In this document: piece after piece, positions 1 through 48,000 of the stretch | How positions within the stretch are numbered: position 1 is the stretch's first letter | How the letters are laid out: every line of letters starts with the position of its first letter | From: Styela clava | Lineage: Eukaryota | Assembly (NCBI RefSeq): GCF_964204865.1 | Contig: NC_135251.1 | Span: 15,500,001-15,564,000, forward strand | DNA length: 64,000 bases | Direction of reading: 5' to 3' | Position numbers: made by a program

Positions 1-3000
1 GACCCAAGAACACTAAAAATCTAACTGAAACAACCGCAGCTACATTACTGCAATCCACAGCCTTCTCTAACAGGATAACAAAAGAAAGAGTGACAGTGCC
101 GTAGCGTCTCGGTGTCTCCAAAGTTAAAACACAAAATATAGCAGTAATATCAAATAACAGCATTCAAAAGACAAAAAAAAGCATGTCACGCTTTAATCAA
201 CCAATGAGCATATATGCTCATTGATTCAACGAAATCGAGTAGGTTTATTTCATTTTTTGTCTAAATAAGCCAGGCTGATCGGCGCGGCCGATGGCGCATC
301 GCATTCACTTGTCATAGTGTCACGGTAAAAAAAATGTTGCTTCTGTGGTTGTAGAATGTAGATGAATCAGAAGACTCAAGAATTCAGGATTGGTTGTTTA
401 TTGCACGGCAACTCCAATATCAAACTTAAAACAGCATAACAGATTACATCACTAAAGAACTAAAAAACACGACCGCCCGCCAGCGCAGCAGCCGCAGAAA
501 AAAGGGGAAAAGACATAGGTAGTTTTTTTCTTACGTGTCAGTGGTCGGAGTCCAGATCCGACAAAACAGCATTAAACAAGGGTAAACATACTAGTCTATA
601 AACATAAAAAAAATATATACACACAATGGACCTTTCCCCGAGCATCGACTTCCGTGTTTACTTCGTGACATTGGCCAATCAGCAAGATGCAAAAAGTGAC
701 GTAACAATGCCCCCTTTTCCCATCCGCTCAGACACTTTTCTCACTCAGACAGATTTTCAAGCGTGGTTGTAAACCTCGTTTTTGAACCCTATTCGTTTGT
801 TTTCAGTTGTGTTTCGGAAACTTAAATAAAAATCAGATAATTCAATGACCACTCTGTCTTCCTAGAAGTTTTAATTTAATTGCAGTAATAAAAATTAGTG
901 TAGAAATAGCTGTGATAGACTAGCCTGAAATTTTTTACCGGTACTTTTAAAAAACAGATTGTTGTGTGCGATGAAGCATAATGATGGTTTGAAACACATA
1001 CCCCATTTTACAGGCGCTAACTCGCAAAAGCACTCCGAAAATAGCACTGAAAATTTTGCAATGGTAAAGTATAGGAAGAATTTTACGGGGGTCAAAGGGC
1101 GGGGAAAGGTCCATATAAACACGGACACTTTAGTGTTTAGTCCGTGACAATAGCACCTTTTGGGTAAGCGAACACGCACTACTTCTTGTATCAATACCTT
1201 CCCACCTAAAATCTGTACGCTTCAAACCTTACTTGAGGTTTGGTTTACTTTTCCAATTCTATAATCAGTTTTAATTATTTTGTTTTTATCAATTTTTTTA
1301 TCGTCTGTTGCTGATTATGGAGTCGAAATAAACTTATCGTTATACCTCCGATTACCCTATGTGGGTTCGTAGAGGCTGCTTCATCACCCGTCGAGTCCAT
1401 GCATCTGAAACAAATAACTGACTATCTAACCCCACACCCGACAAGAACTAGTGATCGGACGAGACGCTGTGGTACGCGATATTGTTAATCCGTCTCATCA
1501 CTTGCACTAAATTGTTCTTTTCCGTTCTTACTCCTCAGTATCCTGTCACAACTGCTTTATTCTGTCGCGTGATGGCGCTATGGATCGAATTCATATTTAA
1601 CATTATGTGTTAGTGAAGTCGACCGATGGAAGTTCTCAGAATATTCTAAGCCGATCTTTGAGCTTTCAGACCAAGCTCAAATCACGAGCAAATTACTGAA
1701 CTACCGGTACCGTATCAGGTTGAGATAAAAATAGCTTTCATTGAATATGATGATTTTTAAAGGATAATGAAAGCCGCAGCGGGACAGCAGGAAGAGTATT
1801 TGAGAGCCGCATGCGGGGTTGCACATCACAGATCGAGATAGCCTAATCTATTTTGAACTCGTCGTACAAGTTATTGTCATTTTACACTCAGACATCTGAA
1901 CATTACCTTGAAAAGCTATGGCTGTATGGTAACACATTTTGATATGTCAAAATCTACAGATCTAAGGAAATGACAGTTGAAGTTGAGACAATTGAAGTAT
2001 AAATTGATTTTTGATTGCTTATTATTTCTTTAATCTGTTAATCAGTAAACTTTAAAATGAATGAAGTGAATACCAAACAGCAAAATTGAATTTTATATTT
2101 TCTTAGAAAATTAACCATTCTTATTGCTATATTTTAGAGTTTGTCATAATGTCAGTTTCCTTTGGATTCAAGAAGAAAATAGAATCCAAGGTTGTGAATG
2201 TTGAAAAGCCTAAAAATGAAGAGCCGGATTATCTTGAAACCGTAGAAGGAAAAGTAATAAAATCAACTAAACTTCAGAAAGAACCACCAAGGGATTTGGT
2301 TATACCCCTAATTAAACAAAATGTTTATAAAATACCAACATCTGTGAATAAACAAAAGACATCAGCAGAAAATGTTATCAGTAGTATTGATGCGGAAGCA
2401 GCTAAAGAAATTCTTGCAGAATCTAAAACATTTTTAGAAGATACTGATCAAAACGGAGAAGATTTTGAAAATCTTGCAGTGCCACTTCTTATGAAAAATA
2501 AGGTGCCCGAGGGATATGAAACTGATAATAAACTAGATGTATCATTGCGACCTGATGAAGCATCAGAGGCCCAATATGATCAAATCCCTGTGGCTGCATT
2601 TGGCATGGCAGTACTGCGTGGGATGGGTTGGAAACCTGAAGTGGGAATTGGCCGAACTTTCAAACAAAACACAGAAATGTTGCACCAGCAAGTTAGGCCT
2701 AAAGGTTTAGGTCTTGGTGCTGATGTGGCTACCCCAATAAAAGCTGATACAACTAAGACTACAAATCGAGATGAAACTCATATAGAGGAAAATCAATTAG
2801 CACTTGAAAAAGGTGCTAACGTATTCATTCACAGGGGCGCATTGAGAAACAAATATGGTGTCATTTTGGGCCTAGACATTGAGACTGCAAGATGTATTGT
2901 CAAAATGGCAATAGGGGGTAAATCTGAACAAATTGGACAACACTGTCTTAGAGTTGTTACAAAAAAGGAATATGATAAAAATGCGAAGGATTTAAGTAGA

Positions 3001-45000: not shown

Positions 45001-48000
45001 CTTTATTAATTAGTCGAAAGTGATCAGTATCATCTTCTTCATCATTTGAAGTAGATGACATAACAACCATTTCTTCCTCCTCCATGACAACCTCCTCAAC
45101 AACATCGCTTTCCATATCCTCAGTCATGTACTCATCTTCGAAAAAATATTCATCTTCAGCATTAGGTATTTTTTCGGTTATCAGATCATGTACAACCGTT
45201 TTAAGTCGCCACATAGAATGAAACAATGTTATTTTGTTTATAAGTCTAGATAATGCTTCAGCTACTCTCGCAGCCTGTGGCATTAGCATGACCTCAACAA
45301 GTGCTGAGTATTGTTCAGAAGAAACTATTCCTTCTTCATTAATGTATGCACCAATTGATAATGGCCATGACAAATAAGCATCTAAAGCATGGACAATCAT
45401 TATTTTTAAAGAAGACGCCATATATTTCATACAAAGCAAAGATATGAGCTTTGAATCCAGTTTTGATGATGTAAAATATGATACAATGTCTTGTGTAGTA
45501 GAACAGAGTTTGTGAGCTAAATTGATCCCACATTTCAGCATCCTAAGGTTAGTTCCGATAGATTGTGTAGACGCTGCAGCACTATCTAATCCAGTGAGTA
45601 CCCACATAACAAGCAACGATATATATTGGTCATACTTCTCCCGATGGTTAACTCCGATCAATGGAAGAGCTGTCGAGATAAGAGGAATGAATTCCTCTAT
45701 TACTGCAACCCATTCCTTCCCTTGTTCTGCATTTAATATCAGAACTGGCAAACCAGAGTCCGTAGTTTGTATTTTACCAATTTTTCTCGCTTTAGTGAAT
45801 AGAGATTCAAATCTAGCAACATCAGCTTCATCCCCATTTTGGTGAGGCTGTTCCTGCTCCTGCTGTAAAAGCAGATTGTTGCATTCAATCTCAAATTCGC
45901 TCATTTCTGGGTGATTAAAATGCATCAGCTGAACGGGTTCCATCATAAAAGGATTAAAAGCCATTGTACTGGTGGAACTGAGAACTTCAACATCTATTAA
46001 ATCCTCCATATCTTGTAAAGCCGCAGCACGTTCCTCTTCAATCTCTTCTTCACTGATTTCTTCATATTCTCCACCCATCCACTGGCTACGTTCTTTTGCA
46101 TGGTCTTCCCCTTTACTATCGACACCATGTCCTATATCTTTAGTCTCACTGTTATCTTCAGACAGGCGTTGCTCTCTTTTGTTTTCACCGTGATCAGTTT
46201 GTAAATTCCGTTCATTTCCACTTCTTTGCTTATGAATACCTACATCGATGTTGTCAACTATTTCATGTCGCATGTGCTGTCTCTGATGGAATGCTTTATT
46301 TTTATCTTTATACGAAAAATGATCACCATCATTTCTAAATGAGTTATCCTGCTCCGTGCCTGAAAGCAATGTTTTTCGACCCCCCATTACCCTGTTATAA
46401 TCCATTCTCTCACCCATATAGTTTTTGTGGCCGAACCCCTTATTCCGCTGTTGACGTCTATCATAGTATGGCGGAGGAATAGCATCTAGGTCCATGTCAT
46501 CCTCCTGGAATCCGAAATCATCTAAAACTCCCCTAGGATTGTCGTCAATTCCTCGTCGCATAAACTCTGCTTCTCCTGTTGCAGGAAAAGATGCCATAAG
46601 CGGTTCTGGTTTGTCTAGTTCTTTTGGCAATTGTGGTACATCTTGCACACCTCGAATATACACTGACCTTCCTTCAGGTTTCTCATGAATAATAAGTGAA
46701 GGAGTTTTCATATTTAAATCTAGAAGAGGTGGAGTGGTGCCAACATCACTAAGAATTCCTCCGTATACAGCAATTGTGATTTGACTGAACCAACCATTTA
46801 AAAGAAGTTTTTCACTGTACAATGCAGATGGGGGGTGAAATCTGTTAGGAGAACCCTCAGCATATTCCATGGAACCTACATGTTCATAAGTGGTCATGGA
46901 AGCGCTGCGATCATCCGAAAAAAATTCAATACGAAATTTACTTGGTGAAGTTTTCCCTGTAAACTGATCTTCATGAAGTTGACTGTGGGTTTTTACACCA
47001 GGTGGAACAATTCTAATTTCATCTACAGCAACCATGCAAGGAAATTTGATGACAGCCCAATTTCCATTCGCCCCTTGAGAGTCAAAATTGTAGGTATTGC
47101 AGAAAATAAGCTGCATTTCGAACTAGCTAACTTTAGTTTACATAGCAAAAACTATTATTAATAGAAAAACATTTATTGTCAAGGAGCAAGAGTACCCAGA
47201 GATATGAATAAATTGATCATACACAATGCTGCAATGAGAAAGCCTATTAAAATGACTGAGACAATAAATATACAAATTTTCATGGAATGCTGAGCATGCT
47301 TTATGTCACATACGAAATAAAATAAAATGAATTTTGTGAAATCTTGCAGGAATAAGATCAAATACTAAATGGCAGGTACCATAGTGCTTCTATGGTCACA
47401 AAATTATTTCACTAATATAGGGATGGGCAATATAAAATACCGAAAATATTACATATTTTTCGGTCGGTTTCTATCGTTCAAGATAGATGCACGTTTGATC
47501 GAGTGTCTGTAGTATTTTAGTCGCAAATAAATTTTGAAAAAAGTTGCCACATCTGGCGAAGATAGTGAATTTGAGTAGGGCTAAGTCTGGGTAGATAATG
47601 ATTAATGATAACATTTCTATCGTTCAAGATAGACGCATGTTTGATCGAGTGTCTGTAGTATTTTATTCGCCGATGAATTTAAAAAAAAGTTGCCTCATCT
47701 GGCGAAGATAGTGACGTATTGAATTTCAGTAGGGCCAAGTCTGGATAGATATTGATATGTAACGATAATCATAGAAAATGAATTCTTCTTTAGATGTTAT
47801 TACCTAATAACTAAGTACGAAATCGCGTTTACGGGAACTTGGTTTTACGTGTCTTGCTCGCACAGAATAAAAAGTTGATTTTAATTGATAGTGGTTAAAT
47901 TTAATATTTTACAACGGCGCATAGGTTGCAGCGGCCACACGCTGATTCTGCATCTAATTAATTCATCCCGTATGTTTTAGTACACTCGACAGACTTACAT

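What the first reader, a model, noticed from the sequence alone, without database searches (positions are those of the whole stretch)
2149..47116. Cluster of RNA-processing genes whose CDSs have no introns, interleaved with intron-rich genes
Seen: GPKOW (1.5 kb), SF3B1 (4.0 kb), ERI3-like, CTNNBL1 (1.7 kb), VIRMA (6.0 kb) and the visible CFAP251 part are each one intact ORF, while BAG3, PLAA and the sulfotransferase in the same window are spliced. Established: vertebrate orthologs of SF3B1, VIRMA, CTNNBL1, GPKOW and CFAP251 have many coding exons; three are spliceosome components and one is the m6A-writer scaffold. Inference: wholesale intron loss (mRNA-templated replacement or retroposition) has hit these genes and placed five mRNA-processing factors within about 45 kb. 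This could be a co-regulated maternal/germline block, or a way of making spliceosome parts largely independent of splicing.
Basis: partly seen in the sequence, partly recalled or inferred. Interest (0 to 1): 0.7.

Follow-up and report, generated by a model that had tools for sequence, protein, structure and literature searches.

The report
Intronless RNA-processing genes in a sea squirt
In this stretch of the sea squirt Styela clava genome, several large, conserved genes, four of them for mRNA processing, have lost every intron from their coding sequence while their neighbours keep theirs, which fits a known ascidian habit more than a special gene cluster.

Summary
The window is Styela clava. 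Nine genes are recognisable. Six have an uninterrupted coding ORF: GPKOW, SF3B1, ERI3, CTNNBL1, VIRMA and the visible 778 codons of CFAP251. SF3B1, CTNNBL1, VIRMA and GPKOW span their human counterparts almost end to end. PLAA has 14 coding exons and the BAG3-like gene at least 4. The sulfotransferase appears split, on weak evidence.

Complete loss of coding introns is the best reading: 0 introns in 16.3 kb of CDS, next to 13 introns in PLAA's 2.6 kb.

I found no sign of recent retroposition. There are no poly(A) remnants, no target-site duplications and no spliced-leader remnant. Neither CTNNBL1 nor SF3B1 has a second diverged copy.

Nothing supports a co-regulated block. The genes lie on both strands, kilobases apart, with spliced genes between them. 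In Clavelina, SF3B1 and CTNNBL1 sit on different contigs.

SF3B1 has a strong splice acceptor 60 nt before its ATG, so it probably still needs splicing.

Ascidian genomes are already known to be rich in single-exon, pan-eukaryotic housekeeping genes (PMC2760879, PMC3155783). This is a clear local example of that, and its functional bias remains untested.

The parts
2149..3639 (+). GPKOW orthologue. The whole 496-codon CDS is one ORF.
   Evidence: GPKOW_C, G-patch_2 and a KOW motif; residues 19-285 align to human 39-307, with the C-terminal domain at 389-502.
4372..8324 (+). BAG3-like gene (WW plus BAG domains), spliced, with at least 4 coding exons. Context gene.
   Evidence: The WW domain is split by a 72-nt GT..AG intron (4449-4520). 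A large exon lies within 6494-7633 and the BAG-domain exon within 7887-8321.
13644..22646 (+). PLAA orthologue with 14 coding exons and 13 introns. Context gene that shows the region is not generally intron-poor.
   Evidence: Database protein P0245 (874 aa) was mapped to the window by tblastn, and 2 further exons were read from frame translations.
25245..29285 (-). SF3B1 orthologue. The whole 1346-codon CDS is one ORF.
   Evidence: Residues 35-1346 align to human 26-1304. An identical 1346-aa database protein exists (P0121). The next best hit is Clavelina at 87%.
29346..29445 (-). Candidate 100-nt 5'UTR intron of SF3B1, or an SL trans-splice or operon junction. GTAAGT lies at 29445-29440, AATAAA at 29383-29378, and the acceptor TTGCTTTTTATCTTTTAG ends at 29346.
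   Evidence: The acceptor tract is 13/15 pyrimidines; 2.4% of 5000 random intergenic 100-nt windows reach that score. This is inferred and no RNA data were available.
29993..30730 (-). ERI3 orthologue (DEDDh 3'-5' exoribonuclease), a 245-codon ORF lying 707 bp upstream of SF3B1 on the same strand.
   Evidence: RNase_T at 1.6e-25 and ERI3 chain 7k05_A at 1.7e-53. The N-terminus is not verified.
38270..39997 (+). CTNNBL1 orthologue. The whole 575-codon CDS is one ORF.
   Evidence: The CTNNBL domain scores 1.1e-175, and residues 1-575 align to human 1-563. The public Styela clava protein P0002 has the same length and about 100% identity.
41141..47116 (-). VIRMA (virilizer) orthologue. The whole 1991-codon CDS is one ORF.
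   Evidence: VIR_N at residues 3-125, and 753-1943 align to human 614-1804 of 1812.
52352..57233 (+). Carbohydrate sulfotransferase-like gene, apparently split over at least two ORFs (52214-53131 and 56209-56658). Context gene with weak evidence.
61663..64000 (-). CFAP251 orthologue. The C-terminal 778 codons are one ORF, and the gene runs off the window.
   Evidence: Residues 1-774 align to human 370-1141 of 1149.

Best explanation
These are the ordinary, functional, apparently single-copy Styela clava orthologues of GPKOW, SF3B1, ERI3, CTNNBL1, VIRMA and CFAP251. Each has lost its complete set of coding-sequence introns in the tunicate lineage. Neighbouring genes (PLAA, BAG3-like) kept a vertebrate-like intron density.

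The all-or-none pattern per gene is what a spliced mRNA copied into DNA and used as a template would produce. That could be gene conversion at the resident locus, or an old retrocopy that replaced its parent. Independent deletion of single introns would not give this pattern.

The genes hit are broadly expressed, pan-eukaryotic housekeeping genes. That is the class already reported to be over-represented among sea-squirt intronless genes.

The adjacency of four mRNA-processing genes is most likely coincidence within a large scan, not a regulatory unit.

What is shown: the uninterrupted ORFs, their orthology and near full-length coverage, the intron-rich neighbours, and the lack of retroposition scars. 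What is inferred: that the ancestor had introns, the templating mechanism, and the lack of co-regulation.
For: - Six uninterrupted ORFs total 16.3 kb of CDS with 0 introns. PLAA has 13 introns in 2.6 kb and the BAG3-like gene at least 3.
- SF3B1, CTNNBL1, VIRMA and GPKOW align with their human counterparts nearly end to end. ERI3 matches over its exonuclease domain and CFAP251 over the part the window holds. None has a frameshift or stop.
- For CTNNBL1, only one S. clava protein was found (P0001/P0002) and the next hit is 73% identical. For SF3B1, only P0121 was found and the next hit is 87% (Clavelina). So no diverged parent or paralogue appears within the length ranges searched.
- The CTNNBL1 loss looks old. 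Records P0015 and P0016 begin with V, which marks ORF calls from GTG on raw contigs. They carry the whole 615-aa protein on contigs of 26,179 and 6,951 bp. They are 76-77% identical to Phallusia mammillata CTNNBL1.
- Literature, passages read: in Ciona, 15% of non-operon genes and 38% of operon genes are single-exon (PMC2760879). Ciona has 1,448 intronless genes, and 54.7% of its eukaryote-specific intronless genes are pan-eukaryotic, against 27-28% in sea urchin and zebrafish (PMC3155783). Intron loss by re-insertion of spliced mRNA at the same locus has been proposed for Oikopleura (PMC4122922).
Against: - The ancestral intron content is recalled, not tested here.
- No eukaryotic genomic DNA other than the window could be searched. 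So the age of the loss for five of the six genes, and the synteny, are unknown.
- The S. clava genome paper says S. clava has fewer intron-less genes than Ciona (PMC7540406). That makes 6 of 9 in one window more unusual: the binomial tail is 6e-4 to 3e-3 for a background of 15-20%.
- Within the window, all 5 RNA-related genes are intronless against 1 of 4 others (Fisher p = 0.048). A real functional bias is therefore not excluded.
- The mean intronless protein in Ciona is 389 residues. Proteins of 1346 and 1991 residues are far out in the tail.
- In-situ conversion and ancient retrogene replacement cannot be told apart with these data.
Confidence: 0.62

Rival explanations
1. Orphan retrogenes. 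Each gene is a retroposed cDNA copy that landed here and later replaced an intron-containing parent, which was lost. SL trans-splicing or read-through from neighbours supplied expression.
For: The CDSs have no introns. Single-exon genes are over-represented in Ciona operons, especially as the 5'-most gene (PMC2760879). ERI3 lies 707 bp upstream of SF3B1 on the same strand.
Against: No A-rich tract (at least 22 of 30) lies within 1.2 kb 3' of any of the 6 genes, and the 3 A-runs of 8 or more lie 482-989 nt from the stop. The longest 5'/3' flank repeats are 10-13 bp and are matched by 11-186 of 200 shuffles. The Ciona SL motif occurs 3 times at 3 mismatches against 2.9 expected, and none is next to a start codon. 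Six independent insertions within 64 kb would be an odd coincidence. Old events would have lost all these scars, so the rival is weakened but not excluded.
Confidence: 0.2
2. A functional block. Selection made mRNA-processing genes intron-free, either to free spliceosome supply from splicing or for fast maternal or early expression. It also keeps them together as a co-regulated domain.
For: Four of 9 genes are mRNA-processing factors, or 5 with ERI3, and all are intronless. Fisher p = 0.048, or 0.12 if ERI3 is counted with the others. The chance of at least 4 of 9 is about 1e-6 to 9e-5 if 1-3% of genes belong to the class; that share is my assumption.
Against: The genes are on both strands with no shared or bidirectional promoter; the divergent pairs are 7.5 and 5.2 kb apart. 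BAG3-like and PLAA lie in between, and CFAP251, a cilia gene, is intronless too. Clavelina SF3B1 and CTNNBL1 are on contigs of 15,725,681 and 10,224,781 bp. SF3B1 has a strong upstream acceptor, so its mRNA probably still needs the spliceosome. The window was picked after the fact from a large scan; this contig alone holds about 490 such windows.
Confidence: 0.08
3. Operon-linked architecture. ERI3 and SF3B1 form a Ciona-type SL-resolved operon, with the poly(A) site of the upstream gene abutting the trans-splice acceptor of the downstream gene. Intronlessness goes with operon membership. This can hold alongside the best explanation.
For: The two genes share a strand and the 5' gene is single-exon. 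AATAAA at 29383-29378 lies 32 nt before the AG at 29347-29346, and the acceptor tract is 13/15 pyrimidines against a 2.4% background. Ciona operons lack intercistronic DNA, and 60% have a single-exon 5'-most gene (PMC1488885; PMC2760879).
Against: A GTAAGT donor 100 nt upstream offers an ordinary 5'UTR intron instead. An ATTAAA 169 nt after the ERI3 stop could end ERI3 much earlier. The other four starts have acceptor scores no better than 15-32% of random windows, and ERI3 has none. There are no RNA data.
Confidence: 0.2
4. Artefact: cDNA contamination of the assembly, or short in-frame introns hidden inside the ORFs.
For: None positive. An annotation match was seen for only two of the six genes.
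Against: The genes sit in non-coding flanks inside a 31.3-Mb contig. An independently deposited S. clava CTNNBL1 (P0002) differs at two residues among the first 60 printed (positions 2 and 32) and has the same length. There are zero candidate introns of 40-240 nt in the six ORFs. A 243-nt stop-free stretch of non-coding DNA has a probability of about 0.003 at the stop frequency (my arithmetic).
Confidence: 0.02

Closest known systems
Single-exon genes of Ciona intestinalis (KH gene models; Satou et al. 2008, PMC2760879, passages read)
   Same: This is an ascidian genome in which a sizeable share of bona fide conserved protein-coding genes has a single exon: 15% of non-operon genes and 38% of operon genes. 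In Ciona they often sit 5' of another gene on the same strand.
   Different: The species and order differ (Styela, Stolidobranchia). Only coding exons could be judged here, not UTRs. Operon membership is untested. S. clava is reported to have fewer intron-less genes than Ciona (PMC7540406, passage; its Table S11 was not seen).
Intronless genes in deuterostomes (Zou et al. 2011, PMC3155783, passages read)
   Same: Sea-squirt intronless genes are unusually rich in genes conserved across fungi, metazoans, plants and other eukaryotes. The genes here belong to that class.
   Different: That survey reports a mean intronless protein length of 389 in Ciona, whereas SF3B1 (1346) and VIRMA (1991) are much longer. 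No enrichment for RNA processing was reported in the passages I read.
Reverse-transcriptase (mRNA-mediated) model of intron loss (Zhu and Niu 2013, PMC3652778, search listing and start of abstract only; review text in PMC4122922)
   Same: Introns are removed precisely with the frame preserved, and adjacent introns are lost together.
   Different: The loss here covers the whole CDS instead of being 3'-biased and partial. The only hint of a retained 5' intron is the inferred 100-nt candidate before the SF3B1 ATG.
Orphan retrogenes, meaning a retrocopy that replaced its lost parent
   Same: An intronless sole copy of a gene that is multi-exonic in relatives.
   Different: No poly(A) tail, target-site duplication or SL remnant was found. 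Relocation could not be tested.
Massive intron turnover in Oikopleura dioica (Denoeud et al. 2010, as summarised in PMC4122922, passages read)
   Same: A tunicate lineage with large-scale loss of ancestral introns, attributed in part to reverse transcription and recombination.
   Different: Oikopleura changes are genome-wide and include many new introns. Here the loss is gene-by-gene, next to neighbours with conserved intron density.

Membership tests
Orthologues of SF3B1, CTNNBL1, GPKOW, VIRMA, ERI3 and CFAP251 | Family-specific domains score above the Pfam gathering cut-off, and the alignment to the human protein is collinear and near full-length. | tested here: met
   SF3b1 165.5 bits (cut-off 25.1), CTNNBL 585.1 (27), GPKOW_C 111.4 (65), VIR_N 95.3 (27.7), RNase_T 91 (24). 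Searches give the coverage. ERI3 coverage is limited to the exonuclease domain, and CFAP251 only to the part inside the window.
Processed retrogene (retroposed copy) | The CDS has no introns. | tested here: met
Processed retrogene (retroposed copy) | A poly(A) tract remnant lies 3' of the copy. | tested here: not met
   0 of 6 genes have an A-rich window (at least 22 of 30) within 1.2 kb. The only A-runs of 8 or more lie 482-989 nt from the stop.
Processed retrogene (retroposed copy) | Flanking target-site duplication. | tested here: not met
   in 5 of 5 genes the longest flank match is 10-13 bp, reached by 11-186 of 200 shuffles. The 13-bp match is low-complexity.
Processed retrogene (retroposed copy) | An intron-containing parental gene exists elsewhere in the genome. 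| tested here: inconclusive
   Searches show no second diverged S. clava CTNNBL1 or SF3B1 protein within the length ranges searched. The genome itself could not be searched, and the other four genes were not tested.
In-situ mRNA-mediated intron loss | Introns are removed precisely, adjacent introns are lost together, and the reading frame stays intact. | tested here: met
   Searches show collinear alignments, and searches show uninterrupted frames.
In-situ mRNA-mediated intron loss | The gene stays at the ancestral locus, between the same neighbours as intron-bearing orthologues. | not testable with these tools
   No eukaryotic genome collection was available. The only hint is that Clavelina SF3B1 and CTNNBL1 are on different contigs.
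Ciona-type SL-resolved operon (ERI3 then SF3B1) | The genes share a strand, and the upstream poly(A) signal or site abuts the downstream trans-splice acceptor with no intercistronic DNA. | tested here: inconclusive
   AATAAA lies 32 nt before a strong AG acceptor. A cis donor 100 nt upstream and an earlier ATTAAA give an ordinary alternative.
Ciona-type SL-resolved operon (ERI3 then SF3B1) | The downstream mRNA carries the spliced leader. | not testable with these tools
   No transcript data were available.
Co-regulated functional gene cluster | Shared orientation or promoters, conserved linkage in related species, and enrichment beyond chance. | tested here: not met
   The genes are on mixed strands with 0.7-7.5 kb spacers and unrelated genes between them. 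The SF3B1-CTNNBL1 linkage is absent in Clavelina. The within-window association is marginal. The genome-wide enrichment was not testable.

The most novel reading that the evidence does not exclude
In stolidobranch ascidians, complete coding-intron loss has preferentially hit the mRNA-processing machinery (spliceosome B/Bact-stage factors, SF3B1, the m6A-writer scaffold). The result would be a set of very long single-exon genes whose production is buffered against splicing capacity. The ERI3-SF3B1 pair would be expressed as an SL-resolved operon.
Probability: 0.1. Interest if true: 0.7.

Novelty: new member of a known kind. Interest (0 to 1): 0.3.

Why it matters
If the pattern is only local, it is a tidy illustration of gene-by-gene, all-or-none intron loss in a chordate. 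A 6-kb VIRMA exon and a 4-kb SF3B1 exon sit next to a 14-exon PLAA. That makes useful material for testing mRNA-templated intron loss, because intron-rich and intron-free genes share one chromosomal neighbourhood.

If a genome-wide count showed that splicing and m6A genes are specifically enriched among intronless genes, it would bear on an open question. Does selection, and not just germline expression level, decide which genes lose introns? It would also link to the unexplained excess of single-exon genes in ascidian operons.

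Tried and rejected
- Supplements of the S. clava genome paper (Table S11 and Fig. S2 on intron-less genes) were closed. The background frequency in this species is therefore known only as 'less than Ciona'.
- Zeller 2010 on Ciona operons is not held.
- I tried to use the protein database as an 'intronless detector'. The PLAA last-exon search returned no ORF fragment from the window's own contig, so proteins from large contigs are probably spliced models and prove nothing. 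Only records that start with V (P0015, P0016) could be taken as raw ORF calls. The 'ena' CTNNBL1 hits P0005-P0009 and the 'lgn' hits P0003 and P0004 stay uninformative about introns.
- Retroposition scars: poly(A), target-site duplications and the Ciona SL motif (the S. clava leader may differ). Nothing was found.
- Acceptor sites upstream of the start codons: only SF3B1 stands out.
- Search for further genes or RNAs: Pfam on all 435 ORFs of at least 42 aa outside the six large ORFs, a codon-usage score (partly circular, and it also missed ERI3 and the sulfotransferase), Rfam with 0 hits, tRNA with 0 hits, and tandem repeats. Nothing relevant was found.
- PDB search of the two sulfotransferase ORFs gave no match.
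- Literature searches for a reported link between intronless genes and splicing factors in tunicates found nothing specific. This holds only for the library searched.

Full report
**Source and scope.** The window contains no N. It comes from the ascidian Styela clava. The 575-codon ORF at 38270-39994(+) is about 100% identical over its full length to the public protein 'beta-catenin-like protein 1, Styela clava' (P0002). The window's own copy sits on a 31,344,463-bp contig. It is not human sequence. Spliced genes were searched exon by exon.

**Gene map.** Six long stop-to-stop ORFs stand out. I also ran Pfam on all 435 further ORFs of at least 42 aa. Together these give nine recognisable genes:
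- GPKOW(+) 2149-3639.
- A BAG3-like gene(+) 4372-8324.
- PLAA(+) 13644-22646.
- SF3B1(-) 25245-29285.
- ERI3(-) 29993-30730.
- CTNNBL1(+) 38270-39997.
- VIRMA(-) 41141-47116.
- A carbohydrate-sulfotransferase-like gene(+) from 52352.
- CFAP251(-) 61663 to the window end.

No coding signal, Rfam family or tRNA was found in the gaps at 8.4-13.6, 30.8-38.2, 47.2-52.2 and 57.3-61.6 kb.

SF3B1, CTNNBL1, VIRMA and GPKOW ORFs cover their human counterparts nearly end to end:
- SF3B1 35-1346 aligns to 26-1304 of 1304.
- CTNNBL1 1-575 aligns to 1-563 of 563.
- VIRMA has VIR_N at 3-125, and 753-1943 aligns to 614-1804 of 1812.
- GPKOW 19-285 aligns to 39-307, and the C-terminal GPKOW_C domain is present.

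For the other two, coverage is partial:
- ERI3 47-243 matches the solved exonuclease domain.
- CFAP251 1-774 aligns to 370-1141 of 1149.

With a stop-codon frequency of 0.0685, even the shortest ORF (245 codons) is expected 2.5e-4 times per window by chance. A scan for concealed in-frame introns found no candidate of 40-240 nt in any of the six ORFs. All in-frame donor-acceptor pairs span at least 243 nt of coding-like, stop-free sequence.

Two caveats apply. ERI3 could have an unseen upstream coding exon. Agreement with a deposited model was seen only for CTNNBL1 (P0002), while for SF3B1 an identical 1346-aa database protein exists (P0121).

**The neighbours are spliced.** Database protein P0245 (874 aa, found with the PLAA last exon alone) maps to 12 exons by tblastn. 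Two more are readable in the frames. That gives 14 coding exons and 13 introns over 9 kb.

The BAG3-like gene starts at 4372. It has a 72-nt GT..AG intron inside its WW domain, and separate exons for the central region and the BAG domain.

The sulfotransferase is the weakest case. It has two weak Pfam matches in ORFs 3 kb apart, an Atlas score of 0.92 for 'carbohydrate sulfotransferase 4-like', and no PDB match.

So 16.3 kb of coding sequence has no intron, next to a gene with about 5 introns per kb. The heterogeneity is per gene and all-or-none.

**What this implies.** Vertebrate orthologues of these genes have many coding exons, and intron-rich structures are taken as ancestral for bilaterians. 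Both points are recalled knowledge and were not tested here. Given them, the simplest reading is complete loss of coding introns in the tunicate lineage. Losing every intron of a gene while neighbours lose none fits replacement by a DNA copy of spliced mRNA. It does not fit stepwise genomic deletions.

**Loss in place or retrocopy?** I could not tell whether this happened in place or through a retrocopy that outlived its parent. The tests for recent retroposition were all negative:
- No A-rich tract lies within 1.2 kb downstream of any of the six genes.
- No flanking direct repeat is convincing in 5 of 5 genes tested.
- No copy of the Ciona spliced leader lies next to a start codon. There are 3 hits at 3 mismatches against 2.9 expected. 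The motif comes from Table 1 of PMC1488885, and the Styela leader may differ.

No second, diverged S. clava CTNNBL1 or SF3B1 appears among the database proteins of comparable length.

**Age of the loss.** For CTNNBL1 there is a clue that the intron-free state is old. Two unnamed records (P0015, P0016) begin with V, the mark of a prokaryote-style ORF call from GTG on a raw contig. Yet they contain the entire 615-aa protein, on contigs of 26,179 and 6,951 bp. They are 76-77% identical to the Phallusia mammillata protein. So a phlebobranch-like ascidian also has an uninterrupted CTNNBL1 ORF.

An attempt to extend this logic to other hits failed. The database holds no ORF fragment of the window's PLAA exon, so proteins from large contigs are probably spliced models.

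**Is it a functional block?** The evidence is against it:
- The genes lie on both strands.
- Divergent pairs are 7.5 kb (ERI3/CTNNBL1) and 5.2 kb (VIRMA/sulfotransferase) apart.
- BAG3-like and PLAA separate GPKOW from the rest.
- A cilia gene (CFAP251) shares the intronless state.
- In Clavelina lepadiformis, the SF3B1-like protein is on a 15,725,681-bp contig and CTNNBL1 on a 10,224,781-bp contig. The 9-kb linkage seen here is therefore not conserved.

Inside the window, the association between RNA function and intronlessness is marginal. It is 5 of 5 against 1 of 4 (Fisher p = 0.048), or p = 0.12 if ERI3 is not counted as RNA-processing.

Suppose 15-20% of genes are single-exon, as in Ciona non-operon genes (PMC2760879). 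Then 6 or more of 9 has probability 6e-4 to 3e-3. Suppose 1-3% of genes are spliceosomal, which is my assumption. Then 3 or more of 9 has probability 8e-5 to 2e-3.

This contig alone holds about 490 such windows, and the scan covers far more. A few such windows per genome are therefore expected by chance. The S. clava paper states that the species has fewer intron-less genes than Ciona (PMC7540406, passage). That makes the local density more unusual. The supplementary table with the numbers could not be opened.

**'Independence from splicing' is doubtful.** Sixty nucleotides before the SF3B1 ATG lies the acceptor TTGCTTTTTATCTTTTAG, with 13 of 15 pyrimidines. Only 2.4% of 5000 random intergenic 100-nt windows reach that score. 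A GTAAGT donor lies exactly 100 nt upstream. An AATAAA lies 32 nt before the AG.

This is either a 5'UTR intron or an SL trans-splice site. In the second case, ERI3 (707 bp upstream, same strand, single exon) and SF3B1 could form a Ciona-type operon without intercistronic DNA (PMC1488885, PMC2760879, passages). In either case the SF3B1 mRNA would need the spliceosome. The other start regions show no acceptor better than 15-32% of random windows, and ERI3 has none. All of this is inferred from sequence alone.

**Comparison with what is known.** Ascidian genomes are known to hold many single-exon genes. In Ciona they make up 15% of non-operon genes and 38% of operon genes, and 60% of operons have a single-exon 5'-most gene (PMC2760879). 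A survey counted 1,448 intronless genes in Ciona. It found that 54.7% of its eukaryote-specific intronless genes are pan-eukaryotic, against 27-28% in sea urchin and zebrafish (PMC3155783). The genes here belong to that class.

What stands out is their size. They have 1346 and 1991 codons, against a mean of 389 in that survey. My literature searches found no report of these particular genes, or of an RNA-processing bias among tunicate intronless genes. This holds only for the library searched.

**Verdict.** This is a clear local example of a known ascidian feature, most likely produced by mRNA-templated intron loss in broadly expressed housekeeping genes. The grouping of RNA-processing functions is probably coincidental.

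**What stays open.** The open questions are:
- The genome-wide enrichment.
- The age of each loss.
- Whether loss happened in place or by retrocopy.
- The transcript structure at the ERI3-SF3B1 junction.

Noticed in passing
window 29346-29445 (minus strand), between ERI3 and SF3B1: GTAAGT donor, AATAAA and a very strong acceptor lie within the 100 nt that ends 60 nt before the SF3B1 ATG. This is compatible with a 5'UTR intron or with a Ciona-type operon junction between ERI3 and SF3B1.
   Followed up: partly
proteins P0013-P0016 (relatives of window 38270-39994): Four near-identical CTNNBL1 records are 615 or 621 aa long. Two start with V, so they are raw ORF calls, and they sit on contigs of up to 32 kb. 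They are 76-77% identical to Phallusia. So the CTNNBL1 CDS is uninterrupted in a second ascidian lineage.
   Followed up: partly
window 52352-57233 (+): The carbohydrate sulfotransferase 4-like gene appears split by an intron of about 3 kb. As I recall, its vertebrate relatives have a single coding exon, which would be the reverse of the pattern in the finding. The evidence for the split is weak.
   Followed up: partly
window 30,800-38,200: This 7.4 kb between the divergent ERI3 and CTNNBL1 starts has no Pfam, Rfam, tRNA or codon-usage signal. The gaps at 8.4-13.6 kb and 47.2-52.2 kb are similar. The content is unknown; it could be regulatory DNA or decayed repeats.
   Followed up: partly
window 51505-51811: A 151-bp unit is repeated twice in tandem at 89% identity, about 0.5 kb upstream of the sulfotransferase start.
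   Followed up: no
window 38270-38275 and codon 32 of CTNNBL1: Within the first 60 residues, the window's CTNNBL1 differs from the public S. clava protein at two positions: N against D at residue 2, and A against S at residue 32. Position 2 is D in 13 of the 14 other sequences inspected. PLAA exons are 96-100% identical to P0245. This suggests a different haplotype or assembly.
   Followed up: no
window 25131-25162: An 11-bp unit (GTTTATGACCT) occurs 2.9 times in perfect tandem, about 85-115 nt downstream of the SF3B1 stop. That places it in the likely 3'UTR.
   Followed up: no
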